A stretch of 40,976 bases of DNA, taken from Candidatus Omnitrophota bacterium. Lineage in GTDB: Bacteria > Omnitrophota > Gorgyraeia > Zapsychrales > Zapsychraceae. The notes beneath the pieces were generated by a model, which searched no databases, was not told where the DNA came from, and saw nothing but the letters and a program-made list of their open reading frames with translations. A program made the position numbers and the translations under genes. This document shows, one piece after another, positions 1 through 28,638 of the stretch (positions are counted from its first letter, which is position 1; each line of letters starts with the position of its first letter). The stretch lies in NCBI GenBank assembly GCA_028280285.1, contig JANQMA010000030.1, positions 1 through 40,976 of the forward strand. Direction: 5' to 3'.

Positions 1-3000
1 TGTTAATTGGGATAATATTGGTGAGTTAAGTACAGCCGGCGTGAATTGGTCAGACTTAACTGTTATGACAGAAGCCGGCATCAATTGGTCGGATATTACC
101 GTGATGAGTGAGGCGGGTGTTAATTGGGATAATATTAGCGAATTAAGTACAGTAGGAATTAATTGGAGTAATATTGGTGAGATGAGTACCTCAGGAATCA
201 ATTGGGATAATATTGGTGAGTTATCTGCGGCAGGAGTGAATTGGAATGATGTTCGTGTTATGACAGAAACAGGAATTAATTGGGATAATGTCGGCGAGAT
301 GTCTGCGGCTGGTATTAACTGGAGTGATATCGGAGAGATGAGTGCGGCAGGCATTAACTGGGATGATATTACCGTGATGAGTGAAGCGGGTGTGAATTGG
401 GATAATATTGGAGAGCTCTCTGCTTCAGGTATCAACTGGGCAGATATTAATGTGATGAGTGAGGCCGGTATTAACTGGTCGGATATTGGAGAATTAACGG
501 CCGCCGGAGTGAATTGGTCAGACTTAACTGTCATGACAGAAGCCGGTATTAACTGGTCGGATATTGGGGTAATGAGTGCGGCCGGTGTTAATTGGGATGA
601 CTTAACGGTCATGACAGAGGCTGGTGTTAATTGGGATAATATTGGGGAATTAAGTACATCAGCTATTAACTGGAGTGACATTGGTGTCATGAGTGCAGCG
701 GGCGTCAATTGGGATAATATCGGCGAGCTAAGTACATCCGGTGTGAATTGGGATAATATTGGTGAGATGTCGGCCTCAGGAATTAATTGGGATAATATCG
801 GCGAGTTGTCATCATCAGGTGTTAACTGGAATGATATTGCTGTCATGACAGCGGCGGGTGTTAACTGGGATAATATTGGTGAGTTAAGTGCAGCAGGCAT
901 TAATTGGTCAGATATTAATGTACTCAGTGAGGCCGGTATTAACTGGTCAGATATTGGGGTGATGAGTGCCGCAGGCGTTAACTGGGATGATATTGGTGAG
1001 CTAAGTACGGCGGGTGTGAATTGGTCAGACTTAACGGTGATGACAGAGGCCGGTATTAACTGGTCGGATATTGGAGTGATGAGTGCTGCAGGCGTTAACT
1101 GGGATGATATTGGTGAGCTAAGTACAGCGGGTGTGAATTGGTCAGACTTAACGGTGATGACAGAGGCCGGTATTAACTGGAGTGATCTAACGGTTATGTC
1201 AGAAGCAGGTGTCAACTGGGATGACTTCAGTTATATGACAACAGCTGGCGTCAACTGGGCTGATTTTGCTGTCATGACAACCGCGAGCGTGAATTGGAAT
1301 GATCTACAAGTGCTGACAGAGTCTGGTGTCAATTGGAGTAACTTTGGCGAAATGACAGCGTCGGGAGTAAATTGGTCAGACTTAACTGTTATGACAGAAG
1401 CTGGCATTAATTGGAGTGATTTAGGTGTTATGTCGGCAACAGGTGTTAATTGGGACGATATTCAAGTGATGACAGAAGCGGGTGTTAATTGGAGCAATTT
1501 TGCGGAATTGTCGACGGCGGGTGTCAATTGGGATGGTATTAATGATTTAACTTCGGCAAGTGTCAACTGGGATGATTTAAGTGAAATGACACAGGCTGGA
1601 ATAAATTGGTCTGATTTTGGTGTCTTATCAACATCAGGTATTAATTGGAGTGATTTACAGGTGATGACGGAGGCAGGGGTAAACTGGGATAATATTGGTG
1701 ACATGAGTACCGCCGGCGTCAACTGGTCAGATTTGACTGTTATGACAGAGGCTGGCATTAATTGGAGTGATTTAGGTGTTATGTCGGCAACAGGCATTAA
1801 TTGGAGTGATTTAACGGTCATGACAGAGGCGGGTGTTAATTGGGATAATTTTAGTGAATTGACCGCAGCCGGTGTTAACTGGTCGGATCTGACGGTCATG
1901 ACAGAAGCCGGTGTGAATTGGGATGATATCGGCTCGATGACAACCGCCGGTGTTAACTGGGATAGTATTGGTGATATGACAACCTCTGGTGTTAATTGGG
2001 ATGATTTGACGGTCATGACAGAAGCTGGTGTTAATTGGAGTAATTTTGGAGATATGACAACAGCAGGTGTTAATTGGGACAGTATTGGTGAGTTATCGAC
2101 TGCGGGGGTCAATTGGGATGGCTTTAATGAATTAACGACGGCAGGTGTCAATTGGGATGATTTTGGTGTTATGACAACAGCCGGTATTAATTGGGATAAT
2201 GTTGGCGATATGACAACCGCCGGTGTCAATTGGGATGAAATCACAGTAATGAGTGAGGCGGGGGTTAATTGGGCGAATTTTGGTGATTTATCGACGGCCG
2301 GCATTAATTGGAATGGTATTAGTGAACTAGCCGATGCGGGAGTTAATTGGTCAAACTTTGCACAGTTATCGACAGCGGGAGTGAATTGGGCTGGCATTAA
2401 TGAAATGACACAGGCGGGCATCAATTGGGATAATATGACTGATCTAAGTACAGCGGGCATCAATTGGGAAGGTTTTGGTGATTTATCGACGGCTGGTGTG
2501 AACTGGTCAGATCTACGTGTTATGAGCGAAGCGGGTGTGAACTGGTTGGATATGGGAAGTATGACAACAGCCGGTGTTAATTGGAGTGATCTAACAATTA
2601 TGTCAGAAGCCGGCGTGAATTGGGCCGGGTTTGAAGCATTATCAACAGGTGGTGTGAACTGGGATAATATTGGCGACTTAAGTACAGCGGGTGTGAACTG
2701 GTCGGATCTAAAGATTATGAGCGAGGCGGGTGTGAATTGGTCAGGTTTTGAAGCATTATCAACAGGTGGTGTGAATTGGGATAATATTGGTGAGCTAAGT
2801 ACAGCGGGTGTGAATTGGGCGGATCTAACGGTTATGAGTGAAGCCGGTGTCAATTGGGATGGTGTTGGGGCACTCGCAAGCTCTGGTGTTAATTGGGATA
2901 ATATTGGTGAAATGTCCGTCGCTGGTATTAACTGGAATGGTGTTGGGGCACTTGCTAGTGCTGGAGTCAATTGGGATGGTGTTGGAGCGCTCGCCAGTGC

Positions 3001-4230
3001 TGGTGTTAATTGGGATGATATTGCGAGTTTATCAGCCGCGGGTGTGAACTGGAATGATCTTACTGTCTTGAGTGAAGCCGGTGTCAACTGGTCGGATCTG
3101 ACAGTGATGAGCGAGGCTGGTGTTAATTGGAATGATATGACAATCATGACAGAAGCCGGTATTAATTGGAATGATCTACAAGTTATGTCGACGACCGGTG
3201 TCAATTGGGATGATCTTCAAAACTTTAGCACCATTGGTATTAACTGGTCAAATATCCAAGATCTATCAGCAGCCGGCGTTAATTGGGATGGTATTAATGA
3301 ATTAACAACATCAGGCATTAATTGGAGTGATATTAGTGTATTGAGTGAAGCCGGTATTAACTGGAGTAATATCGGAGACTTAAGTACCGCTGGTGTGAAT
3401 TGGTCGGATATCAATGTGATGACAGAGGCTGGTATTAATTGGGATGACATTACAAGTATGACGACAACAGGTATTAATTGGAATGATATCGGTGCGATGA
3501 CAACTGCTGGTGTTAATTGGGATAGTATTCAGTCTATGTCAACAGCGGGTGTGAACTGGTCGGATATTACAGTTATGACGGAATCAAATATCAACTGGGA
3601 TAGCGTCGGAAGTATGACCGTTTCTGGTATTAACTGGTCAAATATTGGTGACTTGAGTGCCGCTGGTGTCAATTGGAGTGATATTGGTGTGATGAGTGAG
3701 GCTGGTGTTAACTGGAGTGATATCGGGACAATGTCTTCGCAGGGTATTAATTGGGATGGTATCCAAGATTTATCTGTTGCCGGTGTGAACTGGAGTGGTA
3801 TTCAAGACTTGAGTCTATCGGGCGTTAATTGGGATGATATTGCCGAGTTAAGTCTGGCGGGAGTTGATTGGAGTAATATTGCTTCCATGGCTAATGCCGG
3901 AGTGAACTGGGATGGTATTGCCGATCTAGCGGCGGCAAGTGTGAATTGGAGTAATGTCGCCGATCTCGCCGCGGCGGGTGTGAATTGGACGAATATTTCC
4001 AATCTGGCCTCAGCCGGTGTCAATTGGGATGGTGTGGCTGAGATGACAAGCTCTGGCGTTAACTGGGATGATGTCGCCGAGATGAGTACTGCTGGTGTTA
4101 ATTGGGCGGACATAGCGTTTATGAGTGGTACAGGTATTAACTGGGAGGATATGAGTACATCAAGTACTGCCGGTATTAATTGGAGCGATCTTGCGGCAAT
4201 GAGTAATAATGGCATCAATTGGGATGGGGT
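1..4230 (+). repeat. Coding tandem repeat with a 39-nt period (about 108 units). It includes near-identical 117-nt blocks made of three units, e.g. around 1013-1180.
   Basis: Direct reading shows '...ggtgtgaattggtcagacttaacggtgatgacagaggccggtattaactgg...' recurring with codon-level variation. Antisense ORFs 1462-3204, 3217-3450 and 3802-4233 are mirror artefacts of this repeat. Confidence 0.9.
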
Positions 4231-5008
4231 CAATTACTTGGCCGATAATGCACAAACACTCGTCAGCAATGTTTCAAGTATTCTTACAGCAGTGACCACG
4301 ATTAGCTCCCTTGTTGGAACGGCGAGTGATACGTCATCAGCCAGCACGTTGTTTGGAAAGATTGCGGAAGTTAATGATACCGTTTCAGGACTAGATGTGT
4401 CAGATGTGGGAACACTTGTAACTAAAGTAACAGCTATTGAAACGCTTCTTGGTGGTACGGATGATACTGTTGATAGTTCGACGATATTTGGTGATCTGAA
4501 TCAAGTTGAGGCATTGCTTGGTCTGGCAGCTAATGCGACGACAGATGATACTGTATTCGGGCGATTAAATGATATTCAAGAAAATGCTTCAAGTGGAAAG
4601 TCCAGTGCGGATGCAGCGCTCGGTATTGTACAAAATATTAGAGCTGATCTTGGTGTCGACGGACAAACACCAGATTTATATGATAAAGTAACCTCGCTTG
4701 AATCAGCGTTGCAAAATTTAGATACGGTTGTTGCACAATTAGCGACTAATCAAGTCAGTGCGGATGTATTGGCGCGACAAATGCTTGATATCTTAACAGA
4801 GCTTCTTAATCAAAGTGCAGATTTAGCTGGTCTGGAAGAATTGGAAGTTGAAGAAACAGACGCTGAAATAGAAGGCGAGATGGATATGGAAGAAGTCAAT
4901 GACCGCTTGTCTGAGATCGAGGCTAAATTAGAAGCAATCGCTGAGATGCTTGATAAGGATGGTATAGGTGAGGTTGTAATCAAGACATACTTTGAAAGCG
5001 CGCAATAA
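2..5008 (+). CDS. Giant tandem-repeat protein, 5'-partial (frame open from nt 2; >1655 aa in window). About 108 copies of a 13-aa unit A-G-[VI]-N-W-[SDN]-[DN]-[IL]-[GT]-[EV]-[ML]-[ST]-[EA], then a ~250-aa Ser/Thr-rich, acidic coiled-coil C-terminal domain.
   Basis: The ORF track gives one 1655-aa ORF. Reading the same frame back to nt 2 continues the repeat ('VNWDNIGELSTAGVNWSDLTVMTEA'), so the gene begins upstream of the window. The 39-nt periodicity is visible in the DNA. The last ~250 aa are non-repetitive and end in an acidic 'EELEVEETDAEIEGEMDMEE...IEAKLEAIAEML' coiled-coil-like tail. The stop TAA at 5006-5008 overlaps the next ATG. Confidence 0.8.
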   Translation, partial: VNWDNIGELSTAGVNWSDLTVMTEAGINWSDITVMSEAGVNWDNISELSTVGINWSNIGEMSTSGINWDNIGELSAAGVNWNDVRVMTETGINWDNVGEMSAAGINWSDIGEMSAAGINWDDITVMSEAGVNWDNIGELSASGINWADINVMSEAGINWSDIGELTAAGVNWSDLTVMTEAGINWSDIGVMSAAGVNWDDLTVMTEAGVNWDNIGELSTSAINWSDIGVMSAAGVNWDNIGELSTSGVNWDNIGEMSASGINWDNIGELSSSGVNWNDIAVMTAAGVNWDNIGELSAAGINWSDINVLSEAGINWSDIGVMSAAGVNWDDIGELSTAGVNWSDLTVMTEAGINWSDIGVMSAAGVNWDDIGELSTAGVNWSDLTVMTEAGINWSDLTVMSEAGVNWDDFSYMTTAGVNWADFAVMTTASVNWNDLQVLTESGVNWSNFGEMTASGVNWSDLTVMTEAGINWSDLGVMSATGVNWDDIQVMTEAGVNWSNFAELSTAGVNWDGINDLTSASVNWDDLSEMTQAGINWSDFGVLSTSGINWSDLQVMTEAGVNWDNIGDMSTAGVNWSDLTVMTEAGINWSDLGVMSATGINWSDLTVMTEAGVNWDNFSELTAAGVNWSDLTVMTEAGVNWDDIGSMTTAGVNWDSIGDMTTSGVNWDDLTVMTEAGVNWSNFGDMTTAGVNWDSIGELSTAGVNWDGFNELTTAGVNWDDFGVMTTAGINWDNVGDMTTAGVNWDEITVMSEAGVNWANFGDLSTAGINWNGISELADAGVNWSNFAQLSTAGVNWAGINEMTQAGINWDNMTDLSTAGINWEGFGDLSTAGVNWSDLRVMSEAGVNWLDMGSMTTAGVNWSDLTIMSEAGVNWAGFEALSTGGVNWDNIGDLSTAGVNWSDLKIMSEAGVNWSGFEALSTGGVNWDNIGELSTAGVNWADLTVMSEAGVNWDGVGALASSGVNWDNIGEMSVAGINWNGVGALASAGVNWDGVGALASAGVNWDDIASLSAAGVNWNDLTVLSEAGVNWSDLTVMSEAGVNWNDMTIMTEAGINWNDLQVMSTTGVNWDDLQNFSTIGINWSNIQDLSAAGVNWDGINELTTSGINWSDISVLSEAGINWSNIGDLSTAGVNWSDINVMTEAGINWDDITSMTTTGINWNDIGAMTTAGVNWDSIQSMSTAGVNWSDITVMTESNINWDSVGSMTVSGINWSNIGDLSAAGVNWSDIGVMSEAGVNWSDIGTMSSQGINWDGIQDLSVAGVNWSGIQDLSLSGVNWDDIAELSLAGVDWSNIASMANAGVNWDGIADLAAASVNWSNVADLAAAGVNWTNISNLASAGVNWDGVAEMTSSGVNWDDVAEMSTAGVNWADIAFMSGTGINWEDMSTSSTAGINWSDLAAMSNNGINWDGVNYLADNAQTLVSNVSSILTAVTTISSLVGTASDTSSASTLFGKIAEVNDTVSGLDVSDVGTLVTKVTAIETLLGGTDDTVDSSTIFGDLNQVEALLGLAANATTDDTVFGRLNDIQENASSGKSSADAALGIVQNIRADLGVDGQTPDLYDKVTSLESALQNLDTVVAQLATNQVSADVLARQMLDILTELLNQSADLAGLEELEVEETDAEIEGEMDMEEVNDRLSEIEAKLEAIAEMLDKDGIGEVVIKTYFESAQ

Positions 5009-6342
5009 TGAAAGCATCGAATTATTATCGTCGGTTTAGATTTTTATTATTTATTGGTTTATTGTTCTTTTTCATAAGTGTTGCAAAAAATTCTTCAGCG
5101 GATCTTTATATCAATATTCTTGCTGTTAACGGAGCCGACGTAGCTCAGGATAAAGAGATCAATCATGTTCTTCCTAAAGAGCTCGCTAAAGAGGATGTGG
5201 TTGATACAGACGGACTTGAGTTGAAATATGATGTTGACGCCGGTGCTTATAGTGTTACTGGTGTTGTCAAACTGGGCGCTAAAGACACAAAGACCTATAA
5301 AGTCCGTGTCCGGGACGTCTGGAAAGTTGATGAAAATGAAATTGTACAGATTCAAGAAGAGATTGATAAAAATCTTGCCCGTATTAAGGATACGGAATTT
5401 TTCCCGACCGGTCAGATCAAAAGAGAAAGTCTTATTGAACGCTTGGATTTTATTGTTAAACAGCAGGAAAAGTTTGCGGATAATATTGAAAAGCGTATTG
5501 GCCGTTACCGTATTTATGAGAAAGAATTAAGCGAGATTCGCACCAATGCTCTTTCTGTTAAATATTGGAAGTCAAGGCCGCCGACACCGGATGAAGCCGA
5601 TATTTTTACCTATATCATTGAGCTGGAAAACCCCAATGATGAAGAAGAAGCAATATTATCCCCGAAGCATTATGTGCCAAAAGAAGTTAAACCTGAACAT
5701 TTTGTTGAGCTTCAAGGGTTTGAAGTCAAGTATGATGCTTTAAAGGGAAGATCCTATCTTCAAAAAGAAGATAAGCTGAAAGCACAGCAGAAAAAACGTT
5801 ATGAAATCGGCATTATTGATATTTGGAAAATCCGCGATTACGAAATTGAAGAATTGCGGGATCGTACGGCAAATGCGTTTGAGCTTTTAAGAGGATCAGA
5901 ATTTCTCGACAGTGCCGAGTATTTGGCCCAAGTCATTACCAAAAATCTTGATTATTTGGTTGAGTCGCAAAAAATCGACCGTTCGATTAATGATCATATT
6001 GCGGCTTACCGTAAAAATAAAATAATTTATGACAAAACTGTTGAAGATGTTGAAGCGCTCGAACGTTTATTAGAAGCATTACGCGAGGATCTGGAACGCA
6101 GTAAAGTTAAAAAAGTTCTTGAGAAAATTTCAGAACAGGCCAATCTGGCATCGATTGTTAAAACGATCTTTAAAAAGCCTGATATTAACACAGCATGGAA
6201 AATTATTCTGGGAGTTGTTATATTCGTTGGAATTTACACCTTGATTCACTTTACTATATGGGGCATACGTTCGAAAAACGCGAAGATCGAAGAGACACAG
6301 AAACCTGCCTCTTCGGATACGCCAGAAGAAGACAAGGAGTAA
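5008..6342 (+). CDS. Membrane-anchored coiled-coil protein. It has an N-terminal signal or anchor, two ~55-aa internally duplicated modules, a long charged coiled coil and a C-terminal transmembrane helix. Function unknown; translationally coupled to the repeat protein.
   Basis: The N-terminus 'MKASNYYRRFRFLLFIGLLFFFISVAKNSSA' is hydrophobic. The C-terminus has 'AWKIILGVVIFVGIYTLIHFTIWGI'. There is an internal duplication ('LKYDVDAGAYSV...YKVRVRDVWKVDENEIVQIQEEI' versus 'VKYDALKGRSYL...YEIGIIDIWKIRDYEIEELRDR'). A TAATG overlap links it to the upstream CDS. Confidence 0.6.
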   Translation: MKASNYYRRFRFLLFIGLLFFFISVAKNSSADLYINILAVNGADVAQDKEINHVLPKELAKEDVVDTDGLELKYDVDAGAYSVTGVVKLGAKDTKTYKVRVRDVWKVDENEIVQIQEEIDKNLARIKDTEFFPTGQIKRESLIERLDFIVKQQEKFADNIEKRIGRYRIYEKELSEIRTNALSVKYWKSRPPTPDEADIFTYIIELENPNDEEEAILSPKHYVPKEVKPEHFVELQGFEVKYDALKGRSYLQKEDKLKAQQKKRYEIGIIDIWKIRDYEIEELRDRTANAFELLRGSEFLDSAEYLAQVITKNLDYLVESQKIDRSINDHIAAYRKNKIIYDKTVEDVEALERLLEALREDLERSKVKKVLEKISEQANLASIVKTIFKKPDINTAWKIILGVVIFVGIYTLIHFTIWGIRSKNAKIEETQKPASSDTPEEDKE

Positions 6343-6346: not shown

Positions 6347-7912
6347 TTGACTGAATTAAGATACACAGAAGTCGGCAAGGTAAAAAGTATCCGGGGATGT
6401 ATTGTCTTTGTCATCGGACTTAATAACTGTATTAATGGTCAGTTAGTTGAGTTTGGTTTCGGGACATTCGGGACTATTCTTGGGTTTACGGAAAAGGATG
6501 CGCAGGTGCTTATCGTTAAAGAAAGCACGCCTATTAAAACGGGTGATGAGGTGCGTGCATCGCTGGAACCGTTTAATGTTCCTGTCGGTGAGAATTTTAT
6601 TGGACGGATTGTTAATCCGCTGTGCGATCCGTTTGACGGGCTTGGCCCGATAAAGCCTGATGAGCATTATCCTATTTTTCCTTTAGCGCCGGGTATCCTG
6701 GATAGAAAAGTTTTGCATAAGACGCTTGAAACAGGGACAAAAGTTGTTGATGCGATGATTCCGGTCGGCATGGGACAGCGTGAACTTGTTTTGGGTAATA
6801 AGATGACGGGCAAGACCACGCTTATTACAGATTGTGTTATTAATCAAAAAGGCAAAGATGTCATTTGTATTTATTGTGCGATTGGAAAGGCGCGCTCTCA
6901 GTTGGCGCGTGTTGTACAGCTCTTTCAGGATCATGATGCGTTTGACCATACGATTATTGTAGCCGCTCCGTCTTCATCACCGCCAGGCCAGCAGTATTTA
7001 GCACCGTATGTTGCCTGTTCAATCGGTGAGTATTTTATGCACCGGGGTAAGGACGTGTTTATCGGCTTTGATGATTTCACCAAACATGCCTGGTGTTATC
7101 GGGAAATATCGCTTTTACTTGGTCGTCCACCGGGGCGCGACTCTTATCCGGGGGATATTTTTTATCTGCATTCAAAGATGATTGAGCGGGCATGCCATTA
7201 TGATGATGCTCATGGCGGAGGATCAATGACGTTTTTACCGCTGGTTGAAATTCTTGAGGGCGACTTAACAGCATTCGTCCCGTCAAACCTGGTTTCGATG
7301 ACCGATGGTCAGATTCTTCTTGATGCGGCGATGTTTGGGCAGGGACAAAAGCCGGCGCTAGATCTTGGTCTTTCTGTTTCGCGTGTTGGAACCAAGGTGC
7401 AATGGCCGATTATCAAGGACTTGGCCGCCCCAATGCGTTTGGAATATTTGCAGATTCGCGAGCTGCAAAAATCATCTAAGTTGCGCTCAGGTCCACAGTC
7501 CGAAGAACTTATGGAACGTTTAAAGAGTGGGGAGGTTTTAACAGCCCTTATGTGCCAGGGGAAAAATAAACCGGTGCCGCTGGAAGCCTTGGCGCTTATG
7601 CTTTATGCCTTCCGGGAAAAATATATTATCGATTTAAAACCGCAACAGTTAGAAAAATTTCAAGATGAGATTTTTGATTATGCTAAAGAAAAGAACCCTG
7701 AATTTTTAACGAAATTAAGGGAAGAAAAAAAGCTCAGTGAGGAAATTGAAAAGGTCATGCAGGACATTTTACAAACCTATGTGCGTGAACGGTGTCCGGC
7801 AGGCGCAACGGGAACTGAGGAGGAAGAAGAAGGCGACGATATCGTATCAAACATTGGCCGTGATGTTCTCGACGAGGCAGCTTCCAAAGGCCTTGAAAAA
7901 AGCAAAAGTTAA
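6347..7912 (+). CDS. atpA: F-type ATPase alpha-subunit homologue (non-catalytic nucleotide-binding subunit). TTG start.
   Basis: It aligns along its length to F1 alpha: 'GQRELVLGNKMTGKTT' (P-loop), 'LLGRPPGRDSYPGDIFYLHSKMIERA' (cf. '[26 protein letters not shown]'), 'PALDLGLSVSRVG' (arginine-finger region) and 'AFVPSNLVSMTDGQI'. An RBS 'aaggag' sits 8 nt upstream of TTG 6347. Confidence 0.85.
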   Translation: MTELRYTEVGKVKSIRGCIVFVIGLNNCINGQLVEFGFGTFGTILGFTEKDAQVLIVKESTPIKTGDEVRASLEPFNVPVGENFIGRIVNPLCDPFDGLGPIKPDEHYPIFPLAPGILDRKVLHKTLETGTKVVDAMIPVGMGQRELVLGNKMTGKTTLITDCVINQKGKDVICIYCAIGKARSQLARVVQLFQDHDAFDHTIIVAAPSSSPPGQQYLAPYVACSIGEYFMHRGKDVFIGFDDFTKHAWCYREISLLLGRPPGRDSYPGDIFYLHSKMIERACHYDDAHGGGSMTFLPLVEILEGDLTAFVPSNLVSMTDGQILLDAAMFGQGQKPALDLGLSVSRVGTKVQWPIIKDLAAPMRLEYLQIRELQKSSKLRSGPQSEELMERLKSGEVLTALMCQGKNKPVPLEALALMLYAFREKYIIDLKPQQLEKFQDEIFDYAKEKNPEFLTKLREEKKLSEEIEKVMQDILQTYVRERCPAGATGTEEEEEGDDIVSNIGRDVLDEAASKGLEKSKS

Positions 7913-7918
7913 TAATCA

Positions 7919-8191
7919 ATGGGACGCATTATTAAATTTAAATGTATTATTTTAAGTCCCCATTCATTGATCTATGAAAATGAAGTTGAGAGCGTTTTTT
8001 TGACAGGTGATCAGGGAGAGTACGAGCTTCTTGCCTATCATTATCCATTGGTTGGCGTTTTAAGAAGAGGTGATGTGATTATTGATTGGAATCATAAGGT
8101 GTCAATCAACAGTGGGGTGGTTAAGTTTTTTGCCAATGAATGCTTGATTATGATTGAGGAAGACGTCAGGAAAAAAGTAAAAATTAAGTAA
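7919..8191 (+). CDS. atpC: F1 epsilon-subunit-like protein with the N-terminal beta-sandwich only (90 aa). It lacks the C-terminal inhibitory helical hairpin.
   Basis: 'LTGDQGEYELLAYHYPLVGVLRRGDVII' aligns with epsilon '[28 protein letters not shown]'. The protein ends about 45 aa earlier than canonical epsilon. Confidence 0.6.
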   Translation: MGRIIKFKCIILSPHSLIYENEVESVFLTGDQGEYELLAYHYPLVGVLRRGDVIIDWNHKVSINSGVVKFFANECLIMIEEDVRKKVKIK

Positions 8192-8200
8192 GGAATAAAC

Positions 8201-8422
8201 ATGGTACCAGAATATTTTTTAATAATTGGAATGATGCTCGTTGTTGTGGCAGGCCCGTCTATTGTGATCGGCATGTTAGGGCATGCGGTTATTAAAGCAC
8301 TTGCGCGTAATCCATCGGCGGCAAGTAAAATATTTTTAGGTATGATGGTGATGCTTGTTTTTGTTATTGCACTTTCACTGGTGGCTATGTTGATTATTTT
8401 CCAATTGTTTGGGACAAAATAG
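8201..8422 (+). CDS. Fo c-subunit-like two-helix hairpin protein (73 aa) that lacks the conserved ion-binding Asp/Glu in the second helix.
   Basis: It has two hydrophobic helices joined by an 'ALARNPSAAS' polar loop (cf. the c-subunit 'ARQP' loop). TM1 is Gly/Ala-rich ('VVAGPSIVIGMLG'). TM2, 'IFLGMMVMLVFVIALSLVAMLIIF', has no acidic residue. Confidence 0.5.
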   Translation: MVPEYFLIIGMMLVVVAGPSIVIGMLGHAVIKALARNPSAASKIFLGMMVMLVFVIALSLVAMLIIFQLFGTK

Positions 8423-8656
8423 ATGAGAGTATTTGATCAGTGGTTAGAAGCCTTTATTATAGTTTGTATTATGTCGGTTATTATTGCCATTCCATGTTTT
8501 TTGACTGTTTTGGTGGGGCGAAAAATGATCAACAGGATCGGGCAGTATCCGACACAAGCACCAACAATACAAATGAGTATTTGGCTTCAATTAGTAGCTA
8601 TTGAGGCTGTTGGGTTTTTGCTGTTAATTATGTTTTATAATTTTTTCTCTGATTAA
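8423..8656 (+). CDS. atpE: Fo c-subunit-like hairpin protein (77 aa) with a Glu in TM2. Probably the ion-binding c paralogue.
   Basis: The ATG immediately follows the previous TAG. It has two helices with an 'RIGQYPTQAP' loop. TM2, 'LQLVAIEAVGFLLLIMF', places Glu where c subunits carry the carboxylate (cf. 'GLVDAIPMIAVG'). Confidence 0.5.
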   Translation: MRVFDQWLEAFIIVCIMSVIIAIPCFLTVLVGRKMINRIGQYPTQAPTIQMSIWLQLVAIEAVGFLLLIMFYNFFSD

Positions 8657-8677
8657 TGAAAAAGGAGTAATTTAATT

Positions 8678-9424
8678 ATGGATGTGACATTAATCATTAG
8701 TTTTGTCATTTTTATGATAGTCTTTGTGGGGCTTGCCGGTTTTATCCTGCACAGAGTTTTTGTGGCCAATACCGACGGGGCGATCCAGCGTTTGGATAAT
8801 GAATACGCTGATGCGACAAAAAAGCAGGCCGAACTGAATAGAAAATTAAGGCAGTCTGATGAAGAGCTGGCCAAGCGCCGCGCAGAAGCCCGGGAGTTAA
8901 CGGAAAAGCTGCGTAGTGAAACCGAAGAAGAGACGAAGACTGAGCGGGATAATATTATTCAGAAAGCCCGTGCCGAAGGTGAAGAAATTATTGCCAAAGC
9001 GAAGGGGGCAACGGAAACTTTACGCAAAGAATTAGAAAAAGAAATGGATGCGAAGTTTATTCAATACAGCATGCGTATTTTAAATACCATTCTTGCTGAT
9101 CATGCGAAGGGGGCGTTTAATCAGGTTTTAGTTGATGAGTATCTGACCAAATTAAAAGATGCAGACCTTTCCAAAATTGGCCCTGATGTTAAAGATGTTG
9201 AGGTGACGGCAGCCGGGGAGATAGCTGATGATGTTAAGAGTAAAATAAGCGCAACATTAAAAGAGAAAGTTGGCCGTGATTTTAATGTAACCGTTAAACA
9301 AGATAAAGAACTTGGTGGCGGTATTGCGCTTAAATTCGGGAGTATGGCGCTTGATGGTAGTTTAAATGGTCTTATCCGCCAAGAAGGCCTTAAAATGCAG
9401 CAGGAAGTGGATGACCGAAACTAA
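8678..9424 (+). CDS. Fused b-delta peripheral-stalk subunit: N-terminal transmembrane helix, charged coiled coil, and a C-terminal OSCP/delta domain.
   Basis: The N-terminus has a TM helix 'LIISFVIFMIVFVGLAGFIL' followed by a Lys/Glu/Arg-rich helix. The C-terminus 'SKISATLKEKVGRDFNVTVKQDKELGGGIALKFGSMALDGSLNGLIRQ' matches the delta C-terminus '[49 protein letters not shown]'. An RBS 'aaaggag' lies upstream. Confidence 0.7.
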   Translation: MDVTLIISFVIFMIVFVGLAGFILHRVFVANTDGAIQRLDNEYADATKKQAELNRKLRQSDEELAKRRAEARELTEKLRSETEEETKTERDNIIQKARAEGEEIIAKAKGATETLRKELEKEMDAKFIQYSMRILNTILADHAKGAFNQVLVDEYLTKLKDADLSKIGPDVKDVEVTAAGEIADDVKSKISATLKEKVGRDFNVTVKQDKELGGGIALKFGSMALDGSLNGLIRQEGLKMQQEVDDRN

Positions 9425-9432
9425 GATTTTTT

Positions 9433-10284
9433 ATGGGAAAAGCAAACCGTAAAAAAATTGAATTGATTGAGACCGGTGAAATGGTGGGGCTTATTCAAAC
9501 CCTTAAGGATATTGCCGACAGTAAATATTATTCGATGCTCGGGGAAAAAGAGAAGTTAAGACGGTTTGGTGAGATGTTTGTTGAGTTTTTCCGTTTAATC
9601 AGTTTAACGGGATGCGAGCATCCGCTTATTAAAAATGACAATAAAAAGGTCGGGATTGTTGTTGCGACGGGAGAGGGAAGTTTTTTAGGAAAATTTAATG
9701 GCTCTATTTTAAGCCTTGCCGAGCGTCAACAGAAAGAATATGAAGAATATGAATACATTGCGGTCGGAGCGCGTGGCGCTGAACGTTTGGAACAATATAC
9801 GCCTGATTTAAAGGTTTTTTCCGGTTTTGAAGAAATCGGTATCTATGAGATGGCCATTCAGTTGAAAGATTATCTCATTGAAAAAATTATGGATGGTCAT
9901 TATGGCAAAATTATTGTTGTCTATTCCTGGCCGAAAACCCAGGACATTCAAAGACCACGGATTGTTAATTTATTGCCATGTATTGATTTGGCATCTAAGC
10001 AAGCGGAGTATGTCGAGGAGTTTGAAAAAGTCATTGAAGAGTCTGATTCGCGTGATACTGTCGGTATGTTGGCGCAGATTTGGGTTACATCCAGATTGTA
10101 TGAAATATTTTTAGATCTTCTTATTGCCGCGGCAGCGGCTCAGGCCTCATTTTTGGATGATAGTGTTGATAAGATGAAAAAGGAAGAAGTGAAAGCACGG
10201 TTTGCCTACCGTAAAGCCAAGAAGGGTGATATTGATAAAAGTTTGCGGGAAACATTTTCTGCACGATTGATTGCTAATGGATAA
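9433..10284 (+). CDS. atpG: F1 gamma-subunit-like protein (283 aa).
   Basis: Its length and its N- and C-terminal helices fit gamma. 'KKVGIVVATGEGSFLGKFNGSILS' aligns with gamma '[24 protein letters not shown]', and 'YIAVGARGAERL' with 'LAMIGSKGVSFF'. It is positioned between b-delta and beta. Confidence 0.6.
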   Translation: MGKANRKKIELIETGEMVGLIQTLKDIADSKYYSMLGEKEKLRRFGEMFVEFFRLISLTGCEHPLIKNDNKKVGIVVATGEGSFLGKFNGSILSLAERQQKEYEEYEYIAVGARGAERLEQYTPDLKVFSGFEEIGIYEMAIQLKDYLIEKIMDGHYGKIIVVYSWPKTQDIQRPRIVNLLPCIDLASKQAEYVEEFEKVIEESDSRDTVGMLAQIWVTSRLYEIFLDLLIAAAAAQASFLDDSVDKMKKEEVKARFAYRKAKKGDIDKSLRETFSARLIANG

Positions 10285-10291
10285 TTCTTAA

Positions 10292-11947
<1,656 letters not shown>

Positions 11948-11949: not shown

Positions 11950-14151
11950 ATGAAAAGTGCCGATAATAAAATAAAAAGTGCGCTCATCCGTTTTAATGTT
12001 CTAAGTGAAGAAGAATTAGCCCCCCATGTTTCAGCCGCCCAAGAGGCAGGCTTACCCCTTAAAAGTTATTTACTTCAAAACGAAATTGTCACGGAAAAAC
12101 AGATTCTCATAGCGGTCTCGCAGAGTGTCAATTTGCAGACAGTTGATTTAAATACAGCGGATATTGAACAAAGCCTTCTTGATAAAGTTCCTATCAAAAT
12201 TGCCTGGCATTATAAAGTCATCCCTTTAAAGATTGAGAGTGATATTTTATATGTGGTGGCATCCGAACCGCTTAATGTTAAAATCCTTGACGAGATCCGT
12301 ATGCATATTGGCCATGAGGTTGAGGTTATGCTAAGCACCCATACGCAGCTTATGGATGGGTTTAAGAAATATTATGGCTTTGCGTCTGATACCATTGATA
12401 AAATCATGACAAAGGAGCCGCAGCGGGCGAGTGTAAGCGCGGCCAATGCCGGCCAATGGGTTGAAGATATTGAAAAAGAAACGGATGACCCGACAGTTTC
12501 TAATCTGGTTAATCAGATTTTACTGGAAGCTTATAAAAAGCGCGCGACAGATATTCATATTGAACCGTACCGGGATAAGGTAAGATTCAGATACCGCATT
12601 GATGGTGTTTTGGTGGACGCGAATCTTCCTGAAAAAGTAAAACATTTTCTGCCTCCCATTCTTTCACGTATTAAAATCTTAGCGAACCTCAGCATTACGG
12701 AGAAAAGAGTGCCGCAGGACGGTAGTGCCGTTGTTAAAACAACCGAAGAGCAACTTGATTTGCGTGTTTCCACTGTGCCGACACCGCGTGGAGAAAGCAT
12801 GGTCATCCGCATTTTGCCGACGAAGGTAAGGCTGTTCAGTTTGGAAAAACTCGGGTTTGAAGATAAAGATGTGAAACATTTTAGAAACATGATTAAAAAA
12901 CCCCATGGTATTATTTTTATCACTGGGCCGACAGGAAGTGGAAAGACAACGACCCTTTATGCCTGTTTAAATGAAATTAACTCATCGGAAACAAAGATTA
13001 TTACCATTGAGGATCCGGTCGAGTATGAAATGGAAGGCATTACACAAGTTCAGGTTAATAACAAACTTAAATTTTCATTCTCAACCGGGTTGAGAAGTCT
13101 TTTGCGTCATGATCCGGATATTATTATGGTAGGTGAGGTGCGTGATTTAGAAACAGCGGAGATTTCTATCCGCACAGCCCTGACAGGCCATCTTGTGTTT
13201 TCAACATTGCATACCAATGATGCCCCAAGTGGTGTGACACGTTTAATCGATATGGGGATTGAACCTTATCTGGTGTCCTCAAGTGTCGAAGCCTTTGTGG
13301 CCCAGCGTTTGGTGCGTACGATTTGTCCTAAATGCAAAAAGGGAGTCGAAGATGTTTCCCCGGCTATTGTCGAGGAGATTGTGCAATCATTAAAAATCAA
13401 AGATCCATCGACGATGAAATTTTATGAAGGCGCCGGGTGTGATCATTGCAACCAGACAGGGTTTTTTGGAAGACAGGCTATTTATGAAATATTGAACATT
13501 AATGATACGTTGCGGGCGGCTATTATTGAAAAACCCCGTTCCGATTATATTAAAAGAATTGCCATTGGCGAAGGCATGAAAACATTGCGGCAAAATGGCT
13601 GGGAGGCTGTTTTAAAGGGGTTAACCACAGTCAACGAAGTCCTCAATGTTTCTGTGCGTGATAAGGTTTATCAAGGTGATGCCGTCGTTTCACCTGATTC
13701 TTCTCAAGTCACTGTGAATGAACAGAGATTGCCTAAACCGGCCCAAAATTTCGGTAAAAATAATCGCAGTTATCCGCGTATTGAAGATCCTGTCAAAATG
13801 CGCTACAGGCTCTTGCGGAAAGACCCCCAAGATCCGAGTTTTTTATTAACCGACGGTGTTGAACATCCAACTAAAACAATTGATATCAGCGCCGCAGGTT
13901 TAAGGTTTGTGTCTAATGCCTTGATTGAAATAGGGACTATCTTAGAAATCAAGATTCAATTTGGCGGAGACTTTCCAAGTATCGATTGTCTGGCAAAGGT
14001 CTGCCGCGTCGAAGATGAAGGGGAGAAAAATCTTTTTGGTATCGTTACGTATTATTTGGATATTTCAAGTGCCGATAAAGCCTTGATTAATAAATATGTC
14101 GAGGGAAAGCTAGCTGCATCTTCCGCCGAAGTTAAACATAAAACTTCTTAA
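11950..14151 (+). CDS. gspE: GspE/PilB-family secretion-pilus assembly ATPase (733 aa). It has an N-terminal GspE-N/MshEN-like domain, a Walker ATPase core with a tetracysteine motif, and a C-terminal PilZ-like domain.
   Basis: Walker A 'GPTGSGKTTTL'. 'IITIEDPVEYE' and 'MVGEVRDLETAE'. Cysteine cluster 'CPKC...CDHC'. The C-terminal ~110 aa contain 'RSYPR' and 'RYRLLRK', followed by 'IDISAAGLRF' (RxxxR ... DxSxxG, as in PilZ). It starts 2 nt after the atpD stop. Confidence 0.85.
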   Translation: MKSADNKIKSALIRFNVLSEEELAPHVSAAQEAGLPLKSYLLQNEIVTEKQILIAVSQSVNLQTVDLNTADIEQSLLDKVPIKIAWHYKVIPLKIESDILYVVASEPLNVKILDEIRMHIGHEVEVMLSTHTQLMDGFKKYYGFASDTIDKIMTKEPQRASVSAANAGQWVEDIEKETDDPTVSNLVNQILLEAYKKRATDIHIEPYRDKVRFRYRIDGVLVDANLPEKVKHFLPPILSRIKILANLSITEKRVPQDGSAVVKTTEEQLDLRVSTVPTPRGESMVIRILPTKVRLFSLEKLGFEDKDVKHFRNMIKKPHGIIFITGPTGSGKTTTLYACLNEINSSETKIITIEDPVEYEMEGITQVQVNNKLKFSFSTGLRSLLRHDPDIIMVGEVRDLETAEISIRTALTGHLVFSTLHTNDAPSGVTRLIDMGIEPYLVSSSVEAFVAQRLVRTICPKCKKGVEDVSPAIVEEIVQSLKIKDPSTMKFYEGAGCDHCNQTGFFGRQAIYEILNINDTLRAAIIEKPRSDYIKRIAIGEGMKTLRQNGWEAVLKGLTTVNEVLNVSVRDKVYQGDAVVSPDSSQVTVNEQRLPKPAQNFGKNNRSYPRIEDPVKMRYRLLRKDPQDPSFLLTDGVEHPTKTIDISAAGLRFVSNALIEIGTILEIKIQFGGDFPSIDCLAKVCRVEDEGEKNLFGIVTYYLDISSADKALINKYVEGKLAASSAEVKHKTS

Positions 14152-14169
14152 ATCCTTTCGTAATTCATT

Positions 14170-15378
14170 ATGATGACGACATATGTTTATACCGCAAAAA
14201 AAAGTAATGCCGAGACGGTCGAAGGACGTATTAACGCTTCTTCCGAAGAAGAGGCCATTGATTTAATCAATCAGCTTGGGCTTCTGCCTGTTTCGGTCGA
14301 TGTTGCCGATAAAGAAGAACACGCGCCGGTCAAGGTGAGGGGGACGATCAAATCAAAGGACCGGCTGCTTTTTTCCCGCCAACTGGCCAATCTTCTTAAA
14401 TCCGGACTGCCGCTTTTAAAAGCACTTAAAATTTTAGAAGAACAAACACATAACCGTTATTTTCGAAGAGTGATCCGTCAAATCGCCGATGGGGTTCAAA
14501 ATGGACGTTCTTTTTCAGAATGCCTGGAGGATTATCCACAGATATTCTCCAATCTTTTTGTCACAATGGTACGGGCCGGGGAGGAAAGTAGTAATTTAGA
14601 AGAAATGCTTGTGCATGTCTCTGCGTATCAAAAGCGACAGGAAGATATTAAATCAAAGGTTAAAACGGCGATGACATATCCGGCCCTAATGGCTTTCGTG
14701 GGGGTGCTTGCTGTTTATTTTATTTTAACATTTGTGCTTCCTAAAATGGCAGGGCTTTTTGACAGTATAGGTGAGGCACTGCCTTTGCCCACAGTCATTT
14801 TATTTGCGTTGAGTGATATTTTAACAACTAATGGCTGGTCGATTTTAATCGGATTTACAGTCTTGGTTATGATGATACGCGCTGTCGGATACTTAGAATT
14901 TGGGAAAATATTCACAGGCAGTTTTGTATTAAAGATACCTCTTTTTGGGGACATTATCCATAAGAGCGAGCTTTCACGTTTTGCGCAGGCACTTGTACTG
15001 CTTCTTAAAAATGGTGTGGCTATTCTCCGTGCTCTTGATGTGGCCGTACCTATCATAAGTAACCGTGTTTTGCAGGCAGATTTTGCCGCGTGTAAAGAGG
15101 CGCTCAGCAAAGGTGACTCATTCGGGGAAACGCTCAAAGGGTCGAAGCATGTTCCTTCTATCATGGCCCATACCATAGCGGTGGGGGAGGAGTCCGGGCA
15201 TTTGAATGAAGTGTTGACGGAAATTGCAGACAGTTATGAAGAAGAAACGAATGAGGCAATTAAGGTGGCCACGACACTGATTGAGCCGCTGATGATTATG
15301 ACAATCGGTCTTGTCATTGGTTTTATAATTTTTGCCATGCTCCTGCCTATTTTTCAAATCGATATGCTGGCGGCATAA
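14170..15378 (+). CDS. gspF: GspF/PilC-family inner-membrane platform protein.
   Basis: 402 aa. It has two repeated cytoplasmic domains ('LANLLKSGLPLLKALKIL', 'AQALVLLLKNGVAILRAL') and three TM segments, and sits in the canonical position after the ATPase. Confidence 0.8.
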   Translation: MMTTYVYTAKKSNAETVEGRINASSEEEAIDLINQLGLLPVSVDVADKEEHAPVKVRGTIKSKDRLLFSRQLANLLKSGLPLLKALKILEEQTHNRYFRRVIRQIADGVQNGRSFSECLEDYPQIFSNLFVTMVRAGEESSNLEEMLVHVSAYQKRQEDIKSKVKTAMTYPALMAFVGVLAVYFILTFVLPKMAGLFDSIGEALPLPTVILFALSDILTTNGWSILIGFTVLVMMIRAVGYLEFGKIFTGSFVLKIPLFGDIIHKSELSRFAQALVLLLKNGVAILRALDVAVPIISNRVLQADFAACKEALSKGDSFGETLKGSKHVPSIMAHTIAVGEESGHLNEVLTEIADSYEEETNEAIKVATTLIEPLMIMTIGLVIGFIIFAMLLPIFQIDMLAA

Positions 15379-15379
15379 G

Positions 15380-16174: not shown

Positions 16175-16226
16175 AGTGTAGTATATTGGATTATAGTATG
16201 AGTAAGGAAAAATTGGAGGAAGACAT

Positions 16227-16655: not shown

Positions 16656-16710
16656 CCCAAGACACCTAATTCATATCATTACTGTCGATTTAACTATGAG
16701 TTAAATCAGA

Positions 16711-17952: not shown

Positions 17953-17973
17953 TATTTAGGGAATAAGGGTCAT

Positions 17974-20540: not shown

Positions 20541-20542
20541 AG

Positions 20543-28633: not shown

Positions 28634-28638
28634 GGGAA

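What the first reader, a model, noticed from the sequence alone, without database searches (positions are those of the whole stretch)
1..5008. Giant protein built from more than 100 copies of a 13-residue 'GxNW' repeat, not assignable to any repeat family I recognise
More than 4.2 kb of the window (and an unknown amount upstream) encodes a strict 13-aa periodicity with an invariant Gly-x-Asn-Trp and alternating hydrophobic positions. I recognise no repeat family (pentapeptide, RTX, LRR, hexapeptide, and so on) with this period and motif. Units alternate between 'IGELS' and 'LTVMTE' flavours, giving 26- and 39-aa super-repeats, which suggests a regular solenoid or fibre. The C-terminus switches to a Ser/Thr-rich segment and an acidic coiled coil. 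The gene is translationally coupled to a membrane coiled-coil protein and sits at the head of the ATPase/pseudopilus block. It may therefore be a structural or extruded component of that machine: a fibre, sheath or adhesin.
Basis: seen in the sequence. Interest (0 to 1): 0.8.

Follow-up and report, generated by a model that had tools for sequence, protein, structure and literature searches.

The report
13-residue-repeat fibre of Omnitrophota ATPase–secretion machine

Summary
Window 2-4249 encodes 109 tryptophans spaced exactly 13 residues apart. Consensus: G-[VI]-N-W-x-[DNS]-[ILV]-x-x-[ML]-[ST]-x-A. A 252-residue helical C-terminal domain follows.

The gene is cut by the contig end. The units differ mostly at synonymous sites, so the array is old and under selection.

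The only database match, Pfam Lysostaphin_N, behaves as a periodicity artefact. No PDB chain resembles the repeat by sequence.

Orthologues are rare and come from Omnitrophota or unnamed metagenomes. One locus holds at least 256 units. All 15 loci with readable downstream sequence share this order: giant, 444-aa membrane protein, F-type ATPase genes without an a subunit, GspE, GspF. Upstream lie a secretin and a GspC-like gene. At the far end sits an STT3-like/trypsin-like pair. Full-length relatives have signal peptides and variable Ig-like or lectin-like heads.

Best reading: a head-stalk-anchor surface fibre of the published Omnitrophota 'symbiotic' F-ATPase/pilus locus.

The fold is unsettled. 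One AlphaFold2 run gave a beta-solenoid, a known bias for repeats. A second run gave short low-confidence helices.

The super-repeats are only local. This is a new variant of a known kind.

The parts
2..4249 (+). Array of 13-residue G-[VI]-N-W units: one partial unit at the contig edge plus 108 complete units (first complete unit at base 38, last at 4211-4249). This is the 5'-truncated body of the giant gene.
   Evidence: 109 Trp all exactly 13 residues apart, with column conservation. 39-nt period by Tandem Repeats Finder. Third codon positions diverged, 45% against 67%. Same consensus in more than 1000 units of orthologues.
4250..5008 (+). C-terminal non-repeat domain (252 aa) plus the stop codon. 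It holds three 'G-x-x-x-D-T-x-x-x-T-[LIV]-F-G' segments, long helices, an acidic stretch, and the conserved end VV-x-K-T-[YW]-F-E.
   Evidence: 38-42% identity to P0001 and P0003, with 66 invariant columns. AlphaFold2 with a 7-sequence alignment gives long helices at pLDDT 60-80. No Pfam or PDB match. Weak phage 'minor head protein' similarity.
5008..6342 (+). p444: a 444-aa protein with a predicted signal peptide, two tandem periplasmic modules, one C-terminal transmembrane helix and a short cytoplasmic tail. Its ATG overlaps the giant's stop (TAATG).
   Evidence: Overlap read directly. Internal duplication at E 2e-11. 83 homologues of about 430-450 aa; the sources that name an organism say Omnitrophota/Omnitrophica. 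Always the gene after the giant.
6347..11947 (+). F-type ATPase-like gene set with no a subunit: alpha 6347-7912, epsilon 7919-8191, c 8201-8422, second 2-TM hairpin 8423-8656, b/delta fusion 8678-9424, gamma 9433-10284, beta 10310-11947.
   Evidence: Pfam and NCBIfam hits. Same order in 12 or more loci. Beta has Walker A and DELSPED. The c subunit's carboxylate is Ile here.
11950..22018 (+). Type II secretion / type IV pilus-like platform. GspE with MshEN and PilZ domains 11950-14151; GspF 14170-15378; peptidase MA 15332-16174; GspG-like pseudopilin 16227-16655; minor pseudopilins 16711-17130, 17350-17952 and 17974-19008 (the last is GspK-like); PilM-PilN fusion 19086-20540; PilO/GspM-like 20543-21097; TPR protein 21107-22018.
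   Evidence: Pfam and NCBIfam hits. Same order in metagenome loci.
22002..25488 (-). Convergent pair at the end of the locus: STT3-like GT-C glycosyltransferase 22002-24587 (WWPPGH in place of WWDYG) and trypsin-like serine protease 24607-25488.
   Evidence: Pfam STT3 1.9e-19 and Trypsin_2 4.6e-25. Motif read. About 20 of 41 metagenome loci show TPR-PilO-PilMN running into STT3 followed by the trypsin-like gene. The pair also lies next to a GLUG/GxNW protein cluster.

Best explanation
The gene encodes the stalk and anchor of a very long exported fibre protein that belongs to the Omnitrophota F1-like-ATPase / type II secretion-like machine. Shown here: the protein family has an N-terminal signal peptide, a variable head (Ig-like, LamG, Kre9-like domains), a stalk of about 5 to more than 256 copies of the 13-residue G-[VI]-N-W unit, and a conserved helical C-terminal domain of about 250-270 residues. 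Also shown: it is always followed by the translationally coupled single-pass membrane protein p444, then by alpha-epsilon-c-c'-b/delta-gamma-beta, GspE and GspF. It is preceded by an ExeA-like ATPase, a GspC-like protein, a secretin and a TPR protein. Inferred: the protein is exported by Sec. Its conserved C-terminal domain docks on the periplasmic part of p444 or on the pseudopilus platform. The pseudopilus system passes the head and stalk through the secretin. The result is a rigid, highly regular, acidic stalk of tens of nanometres that holds a carbohydrate- or cell-binding head away from the tiny cell, for attachment to a host or prey. The stalk would be at least 26 nm here if two units make one 4.8 A beta-solenoid coil. 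The 13-mer works as a length-adjustable spacer. Unit number changes by unequal recombination, while each unit is kept by purifying selection. Whether the F1-like motor acts on the fibre is not known.
Against: There is no experimental localisation. No canonical anchor is present (no LPxTG, no T1SS signal, no outer-membrane barrel). Docking to p444 is inferred only from adjacency and coupling. The fold is unsettled. The five models of the first AlphaFold2 run range from pLDDT 48 to 86. The second run, with an alignment, gives short helices at pLDDT 37-57 for the last six units. AlphaFold2 is known to invent confident beta-solenoids for repeats (PMC11795689). A rigid rod longer than the periplasm is an unusual T2SS cargo. 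Acidity is not universal, since the repeats of P0094 are rich in Lys and Arg.
Confidence: 0.5

Rival explanations
1. The fibre is a homotrimer whose 13-residue units form an alpha/beta coiled coil or another trimeric phage-fibre-like structure, not a single-chain beta-solenoid. Each unit would be a two-turn helix (W4 to M10) plus a G-[VI]-N beta-layer or turn. It would still be the machine's surface fibre, but several times longer per residue.
For: 13 = 7 + 6, the heptad-plus-hexad spacing that produces beta-layers in trimeric coiled coils (PMC4786415). Relatives with the same C-terminal domain and p444 carry heptad-like 'KVDTVGN' repeats (L063) or 15-residue 'IKxKTDTIxWxDI' units (L015, L016) where the 13-mers would be. 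The second AlphaFold2 run places short helices at W4-M10. The C-terminal domain is helical and weakly resembles phage minor head and fibritin families. Conserved positions 4, 7, 10 and 13 are spaced by 3, not by 2. There is no Pro in more than 10,000 repeat residues.
Against: The published beta-layer consensus, [aliphatic]-A-T-K-[polar]-[DE], is not present. The helical prediction has low confidence. No multimer prediction could be run. The phage similarities are weak and lie in low-complexity sequence.
Confidence: 0.25
2. The protein is a released cargo of the secretion system, for example a matrix, coat or S-layer-like component or a secreted binding protein. It would not stay attached to p444 or the machine, and p444 would be a dedicated periplasmic chaperone or targeting factor.
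For: The locus has the T2SS hallmarks GspC-like, secretin, GspG, GspK-like and ExeA-like, and no PilT was seen in the window. The protein has a signal peptide but no membrane anchor of its own.
Against: The strictly conserved C-terminal domain with translational coupling to a membrane protein fits a stoichiometric complex better than a chaperone. The head-stalk layout with a variable stalk length is typical of tethered adhesins.
Confidence: 0.15
3. The array is a flexible spacer modified by the co-located STT3-like enzyme. That enzyme would glycosylate the invariant Asn of G-x-N-W (often N-W-S/T), giving a mucin-like glycoprotein stalk.
For: An STT3-like GT-C plus a trypsin-like protease are conserved at the end of the locus. 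They also sit next to a separate cluster that encodes a GLUG-head protein with GxNW units. GT2-DUF2304-methyltransferase-GT2 genes lie upstream in L001-L003. N-W-[ST] occurs in 44 of 108 units here and 46 of 78 in P0001.
Against: The +2 position is not conserved: Ser or Thr in only 16-18% of units in L009, L014 and P0002. Yet Asn stays at or near 100% across loci, so a sequon cannot explain its invariance. The enzyme has WWPPGH or WWAPGH instead of WWDYG, so it lacks the Asp that (from my own knowledge of PglB/STT3) contacts the sequon's +2 Ser/Thr. Of 41 STT3-like loci, only the seed locus has a strict GxNW array within 10 kb. That flank is too short to reach the giant in the window-type arrangement. 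Pilins are an equally likely substrate.
Confidence: 0.08
4. The repeat count or the repeat itself is an assembly or annotation artefact.
For: Nearly every contig that carries the family ends inside the array, including this one.
Against: Independent assemblies from many samples show the same unit. One locus, from a record titled as a complete chromosome (OY759724.1), has at least 256 units in frame. Units differ at synonymous sites and the frame never breaks.
Confidence: 0.02

Closest known systems
Omnitrophota 'symbiotic' F-type ATPase / type-4a pilus loci (Seymour et al. 2023, PMC10066038)
   Same: Same phylum and same locus type: non-respiratory F-type ATPase genes directly beside GspE/GspF/pilin-like genes.
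   Different: In the text passages retrieved, the paper does not describe the 13-residue-repeat protein, p444, the missing a subunit or the STT3-like/protease pair. The pilus genes here look more like T2SS (GspG, GspK-like, GspC-like, ExeA-like) than T4aP.
Mycoplasma mobile gliding machinery (F1-like ATPase plus giant surface proteins Gli349, Gli521, Gli123)
   Same: An F1-like alpha/beta motor genetically tied to very large surface proteins. Seymour et al. place the Omnitrophota alpha subunit with the Mycoplasma type 2/3 ATPases.
   Different: The NCBIfam gliding models are not met (alpha 371 bits against a 600 cut-off; beta 411 against 850). Instead alpha and beta pass the ordinary atpA and atpD cut-offs. 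Here c, b/delta and epsilon subunits and a secretin system are present. No match to a gliding-protein family was returned for the giant.
Fibrillar adhesins with repeat stalks, and RTX-type beta-roll repeats (GGxGxDxUx)
   Same: Signal peptide, binding head, long stalk of tandem repeats whose number varies. The unit is short, acidic and rich in Gly, Asn and Asp, and may pack two units per coil as in a beta-roll (inference).
   Different: The unit is 13 residues with invariant Asn-Trp, not an Ig-like domain or a nonapeptide. There is no HemolysinCabind hit and no T1SS signal. Export would be by a T2SS-like system.
Right-handed parallel beta-helix (pectin-lyase-like) fold
   Different: Sequence identity is 5-12%. 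Foldseek TM-scores are only 0.2-0.3. No Pfam beta-helix repeat family matched. The model itself is unreliable.
Lysostaphin N-terminal 13-residue repeats (Pfam PF25533)
   Same: Same period of 13, and a nominal E-value of 6e-57 on the whole protein.
   Different: A 312-aa piece scores 51 bits, below the 60-bit cut-off. The reversed sequence also hits. Column-permuted controls hit unrelated families at 1e-5 to 1e-11. Orthologues score only 27-32 bits. This is not homology.
Omnitrophota giant proteins ('Archaeovorins' and dockerin-type; West-Roberts et al. 2023 preprint; 2026 complete-genome preprint)
   Same: Very long, repeat-rich, assembly-breaking exported proteins next to T2SS-like loci in the same phylum, proposed to act in prey adhesion.
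   Different: Those proteins are 20,000-147,000 aa with HEAT, TSP3, dockerin or enzyme domains and Tad/rcpC-type neighbours. Neither text mentions a 13-residue Asn-Trp repeat or F-type ATPase neighbours in the passages retrieved.

Membership tests
Pfam PF25533 Lysostaphin_N | Score above the gathering cut-off (60 bits) that reflects sequence order rather than periodicity | tested here: not met
   Whole protein 190 bits. A 312-aa fragment scores 51 bits, the reversed sequence 25 bits, and column-permuted controls give equally 'significant' hits to unrelated families. Orthologues score 27-32 bits.
RTX / HemolysinCabind beta-roll | Nonapeptide GGxGxDxUx repeats and a Pfam or NCBIfam match | tested here: not met
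   The period is strictly 13 and no such family appears among the hits.
Leucine-rich repeat | LxxLxLxxN core in units of 20-30 residues, and a Pfam LRR score above the cut-off | tested here: not met
   LRR_10 scores 29.1 bits against a 30-bit cut-off on a fragment only. The motif does not fit the consensus. The 26-aa BspA-like LRR protein P0110 matches at 20% identity through periodicity.
Pentapeptide / hexapeptide repeat proteins | Period of 5 or 6 with a family match | tested here: not met
   The period is 13. There are no Pfam hits, and Foldseek gives only weak generic similarity.
Omnitrophota 'symbiotic' F-ATPase/T4aP locus (PMC10066038) | F-type ATPase genes within 10 kb of type-4 pilus-like genes in an Omnitrophota genome | tested here: met
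   Beta ends at 11947 and GspE starts at 11950. The closest relatives are Omnitrophota MAGs.
Omnitrophota 'symbiotic' F-ATPase/T4aP locus (PMC10066038) | Alpha subunit in the non-respiratory clade with the Mycoplasma type 2/3 ATPases | not tested
   No phylogeny was made. NCBIfam scores the alpha just above the ordinary atpA cut-off (498 against 484) and below the gliding model (371 against 600). Absence of an a subunit in all loci supports a non-respiratory role.
Type II secretion system | GspC, D, E, F, G, minor pseudopilins including GspK, and an L/M-like platform | tested here: met
   E, F, G, J-like, K-like, PilMN and PilO/GspM-like are in the window. The secretin and T2SSC-like genes are seen only in orthologous loci L001-L003, because the contig ends here.
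Mycoplasma mobile-type gliding machinery | Gli349/Gli521/Gli123 homologues and MMOB1660/1670-family ATPase subunits | tested here: not met
   NCBIfam glide models score below their cut-offs. The giant and p444 match no gliding-protein family.
Alpha/beta coiled coil (Hartmann et al. 2016) | Trimeric coiled coil with hexad or nonad insertions carrying the beta-layer motif [aliphatic]-A-T-K-[polar]-[DE] | tested here: inconclusive
   The period 13 = 7+6 fits, and relatives carry heptad and 15-residue stalk repeats. The motif is absent, and oligomeric state could not be predicted with these tools.
N-glycoprotein substrate of an STT3/PglB-type oligosaccharyltransferase | Conserved N-x-S/T sequon and an enzyme with the WWDYG motif | tested here: not met
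   Ser or Thr at +2 occurs in only 16-59% of units depending on the locus. The enzyme has WWPPGH or WWAPGH.

The most novel reading that the evidence does not exclude
The 13-residue-repeat fibre is the force-transmitting extracellular part (a 'leg', tether or drill) of a hybrid machine. In that machine an F-type rotary ATPase has lost its proton channel: no a subunit in any locus, and the c-ring carboxylate lost in this lineage. Through p444 it would be mechanically coupled to a fibre threaded through a secretin. ATP-driven rotation or pulling, not pilus retraction, would then move or reel the nanobacterium on its host. That would be a new kind of bacterial surface motor.
Probability: 0.12. 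Interest if true: 0.9.

Novelty: new variant of a known kind. Interest (0 to 1): 0.6.

Why it matters
Omnitrophota are uncultured nanobacteria thought to live on other cells. Their odd F-type ATPase/pilus locus has been proposed as an attachment or motility device, but without a known working part outside the cell. This analysis identifies a conserved candidate: a head-stalk-anchor protein with a new 13-residue repeat, together with its membrane partner p444. It also shows that the locus extends from glycosyltransferases and a secretin to an STT3-like enzyme. That turns a vague 'symbiosis locus' into a testable parts list. There are two practical points. The array breaks short-read assemblies, so the gene is systematically truncated in MAGs. 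In this and most of the orthologues examined it has almost no Lys or Arg, so standard tryptic proteomics would miss it there. The repeat is also a clean case for testing structure predictors, because two AlphaFold2 runs give opposite secondary structures.

Tried and rejected
1. Lysostaphin_N homology is rejected. Column-permuted, reversed and shuffled controls show that periodic sequences collect inflated E-values.
2. LRR/BspA/DUF285 kinship is rejected. The 20%-identity hits to 26-aa LRR proteins are periodic coincidence, and the LRR core motif does not fit.
3. Regular 26/39-aa super-repeats as a structural rule are rejected. Flavour order is irregular and lag autocorrelation is nearly flat.
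4. A canonical N-glycosylation sequon as the reason for the invariant Asn is rejected.
5. A general adjacency of STT3-like genes to GxNW arrays within 10 kb was not found. The STT3-like/trypsin-like pair did prove to be a conserved end of the secretion locus.
6. Searches of PDB sequences with the repeat and with the C-terminal profile found nothing significant.
7. Foldseek against PDB gave only generic solenoids at TM 0.2-0.3. The AFDB library was unavailable.
8. The source contig was looked up to recover the missing 5' end, but only a shorter Logan contig exists.
9. The second structure model (pLDDT 57) was too poor for a fold search.
10. Literature searches for an earlier description of the repeat found none.
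11. The reverse-strand ORFs 1462-3204 and 3802-4233 lie wholly inside the array on the opposite strand. They were judged to be shadow ORFs of the repeats and were not tested further.

Full report
**The observation**

Frame 2 of the + strand is open from base 2 to a TAA stop at 5006-5008. It contains 109 tryptophans, and every one of the 108 intervals between them is exactly 13 residues. From base 38 to 4249 there are 108 complete units. Their consensus is G(103/108)-[VI](108)-N(107)-W(108)-x-[DNGS]-[ILFVM]-x-x-[ML](106)-[ST](99)-x-A(79). Tandem Repeats Finder reports the 39-nt period and local 78-, 117- and 156-nt periods.

The units are not recent copies. Pairwise identity is 67% at codon positions 1+2 and only 45% at position 3. 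The conserved Gly uses four codons and the Ala four. The frame is never broken. The 1417-residue repeat region has no Cys, no Pro, 3 Lys+Arg, 189 Asp+Glu and a pI of 4.05.

The flavours 'IGELS' and 'LTVMTE' exist, but their order is irregular. Unit identity at lags 2 and 3 (0.556, 0.565) is barely above lag 1 (0.529). The 26/39-residue super-repeats are therefore local duplications, for example 818-1224 at 83-86% matches. The window is a whole 40,976-bp contig, so the gene's 5' end is lost at the contig edge.

**Is it a known repeat?**

Pfam reports Lysostaphin_N (PF25533) at 6e-57. From my own knowledge, that family models the 13-residue propeptide repeats of lysostaphin. I tested the hit with controls:
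- A 312-residue piece of the real sequence scores 51 bits, below the 60-bit cut-off.
- The reversed sequence still hits the family.
- Five versions with the 13 columns permuted hit unrelated families at 1e-5 to 1e-11.
- A full shuffle hits nothing.
- A synthetic lysostaphin repeat scores 92 bits over 104 residues.

Orthologues score only 27-32 bits. The match is a periodicity artefact.

NCBIfam, PHROGs and PDB sequence searches give nothing meaningful for the repeat. Hits at about 20% identity to 26-residue LRR proteins are also periodic coincidences.

**Relatives**

Among 5.8 billion protein clusters only six match, and three are true orthologues. P0001 (2809 aa) shows the full plan:
- a signal peptide;
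- a large N-terminal region with Ig_Rha78A_N domains;
- a short coiled-coil-like lead-in ('IKAKTDTINW');
- 78 units;
- the same C-terminal domain.

P0003, from a Candidatus Omnitrophota MAG, has a LamG head and 42 units. An exhaustive HMMER search of 1.84 billion representatives finds 668 hits, 38 of them below 1e-30. Most are fragments of the same family. One is a complete small member, P0098 (900 aa), with an N-terminal hydrophobic segment, a short coiled-coil-like segment, about 30 units and the C-terminal domain.

A scan of one genome per species with the C-terminal profile finds 14 loci in Omnitrophota MAGs. Some of these are filed under 'uncultured Planctomycetales'. Almost all are cut by a contig end inside the array. 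In-frame unit counts are at least 133, at least 164, at least 245, and at least 256. The last comes from a record titled as a complete chromosome, OY759724.1, and that array is still open upstream.

Across more than 1000 units in the loci with long arrays, Asn3 is 98-100% and Trp4 is 100% conserved. Cys is absent and Pro nearly absent. In every orthologue whose array end is visible, the array ends with the same capping units ('[FY]MSG.G.NW...YLADNA'). The six orthologues that show the early part of the array (P0001-P0003, P0094, P0095, P0098) also share a conserved break ('NW-DET-INWDNLAELTTA'). Acidity is not universal, since the units of P0094 are rich in Lys and Arg.

A second, unrelated family has GLUG/Peptidase_M26_N heads and carries 7-12 of the same units (P0004, P0118, P0122, P0125, P0141). 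The 13-mer is therefore a reusable extracellular module.

**Context**

The stop of the giant overlaps the start of a 444-residue protein as TAATG. By eye, p444 has a signal peptide. It has two tandem periplasmic modules (internal duplication, E 2e-11), one C-terminal transmembrane helix and a short cytoplasmic tail.

The genes that follow are:
- F-type alpha, epsilon, c, a second two-helix hairpin, a b/delta fusion, gamma and beta;
- GspE with MshEN and PilZ domains, then GspF;
- an HExxH peptidase;
- a GspG-like pseudopilin and three minor pseudopilins (one GspK-like);
- a PilM-PilN fusion, a PilO/GspM-like protein and a TPR protein;
- on the other strand, an STT3-like glycosyltransferase and a trypsin-like protease.

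tblastn of these proteins against the related loci shows the same order in 15 loci with downstream sequence: 13 distinct loci, plus L064 and L019, which is the window's own sequence in another assembly. That order is giant, p444, alpha, epsilon, c, c', b/delta, gamma, beta, GspE, GspF, as far as each contig reaches.

The most divergent p444 relative (24% identity) is likewise followed by F-type genes, in a different order, and then by GspE, GspF and GspG. No locus has an a subunit. Upstream in L001-L003 lie GT2, DUF2304, methyltransferase, GT2, an ExeA-like AAA protein, a T2SSC-like protein, a secretin and a TPR protein.

A metagenome scan with the STT3-like protein returned 41 loci. About 20 of them show TPR-PilO-PilMN and further pseudopilus genes running into the STT3-like gene, with the trypsin-like gene on its other side.

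The whole region is therefore one conserved locus. It corresponds to the 'symbiotic' F-type ATPase/type-4a pilus locus of Seymour et al. 2023 (PMC10066038). In the passages retrieved, that paper does not describe the repeat protein, p444 or the enzyme pair. Two preprints on Omnitrophota giant proteins do not mention this repeat in the passages retrieved either.

**Structure**

AlphaFold2 was run on 27 units without an alignment. The best model has pLDDT 86.5 and pTM 0.78. It is all-beta, with one five-residue strand (positions 9-13) and one three-residue strand (positions 3-5) per unit. The other four models score 73 to 48.

A second run covered the last six units plus the C-terminal domain, with a seven-sequence alignment. 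It gives short helices (W4 to M10) for the units at pLDDT 37-57, and long helices at pLDDT 60-80 for the C-terminal domain.

AlphaFold2 is documented to produce confident but unrealistic beta-solenoids for repeat sequences (PMC11795689). I therefore treat the fold as unsettled.

A trimeric alternative deserves weight, for these reasons:
- 13 = 7 + 6 is the spacing that creates beta-layers in trimeric coiled coils (PMC4786415).
- Relatives with the same C-terminal domain and the same neighbour carry 15-residue or heptad-like stalk repeats instead.
- The C-terminal domain weakly resembles phage head and fibritin proteins.

Against it, the published beta-layer motif is absent, and no multimer prediction was possible.

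**Mechanism**

What is shown:
- It is an exported protein family.
- The head is variable and the number of 13-mers is highly variable.
- The C-terminal domain is conserved.
- It is coupled without exception to p444 and to an a-less F-type ATPase plus a T2SS-like system.

What is inferred: Sec export, docking of the C-terminal domain on p444 or on the platform, passage of head and stalk through the secretin, and use as a spacer that presents a binding head to a host or prey cell.

Rivals are a trimeric version of the same fibre, a released cargo, and a glycosylated flexible spacer. The last is weakened because Ser/Thr at +2 is not conserved, and because the STT3-like enzyme has WWPPGH instead of WWDYG.

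**Verdict**

The repeat is a new family within a known kind of protein (repeat-stalk surface fibres) and within a published locus type. It is a new variant of a known kind, of moderate to high interest.

Noticed in passing
window 6347-11947; loci L001-L017, L063, L064: The F-type ATPase gene set (alpha, epsilon, c, c', b/delta, gamma, beta) has no a subunit in any locus examined. In this window the c subunit's ion-binding carboxylate is Ile, and in L004 it is Val. The other 13 loci aligned keep Glu. The second hairpin (8423-8656) has no Pfam hit but carries a Glu in its second helix.
   Followed up: partly
window 22002-25488 (- strand); L022-L062: An STT3-like GT-C enzyme with WWPPGH (WWAPGH in L020) instead of WWDYG, followed by a trypsin-like protease. 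The pair forms a conserved convergent end of the secretion locus in about 20 of 41 metagenome loci. It also sits next to a cluster encoding a GLUG-head protein with GxNW units (L020/L058). Its substrate is unknown.
   Followed up: partly
proteins P0004, P0118, P0122, P0125, P0141; locus L020 10001-12844: A second protein family with GLUG/Peptidase_M26_N heads and Ig-like tails carries 7-12 copies of the same 13-residue GxNW unit, away from any ATPase. The unit is therefore a portable extracellular module.
   Followed up: partly
window 11950-14151 and 29139-31106: GspE carries both an N-terminal MshEN domain and a C-terminal PilZ domain. From my own knowledge, both are c-di-GMP-binding domain families. 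A PAS-GGDEF-EAL protein lies 15 kb downstream. In L001 the PilZ domain is a separate gene.
   Followed up: no
window 15332-16174: A Peptidase_MA_2 (HExxH) gene, weakly like flagellinolysin, overlaps the end of GspF and precedes the major pseudopilin. It is present in many but not all related loci (absent in L017, L023 and L044).
   Followed up: partly
window 10310-10570: The beta subunit has an 86-residue N-terminal extension rich in Glu, Gln and Pro before the beta-barrel domain. The beta of L001 (465 aa) lacks it.
   Followed up: no
window 1; L004-L017, L019, L063, L064: Almost every contig carrying this gene family ends inside the repeat array, including this one and a Logan assembly of the same sequence. 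The gene is therefore systematically truncated in MAGs, and its true length is unknown in most genomes.
   Followed up: yes
L015 2-4909, L016, L063 1-1101: Relatives with the same C-terminal domain and p444 neighbour replace most of the 13-mers. L015 and L016 have about four 15-residue 'IKxKTDTIxWxDI' units. L063 has heptad-like 'KVDTVGN' repeats plus an Ig-like domain. This hints that the 13-mer evolved from a coiled-coil-like stalk.
   Followed up: partly
window 2-4249: The 1417-residue repeat region has only 3 Lys+Arg. It would yield almost no tryptic peptides, and it would resist a trypsin-specificity protease such as the one the locus might encode. P0094 is an exception, with Lys/Arg-rich units.
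   Followed up: partly
window 1462-3204 and 3802-4233 (- strand): Long reverse-strand ORFs (580 and 143 aa) lie wholly inside the array. I judged them to be shadow ORFs of the repeats, not genes. They were not tested further.
   Followed up: no
window 25925-29043: A GH94-family phosphorylase-like gene (902 aa) is followed directly by another type IV pilin-like gene (134 aa), just beyond the STT3-like/protease pair.
   Followed up: no
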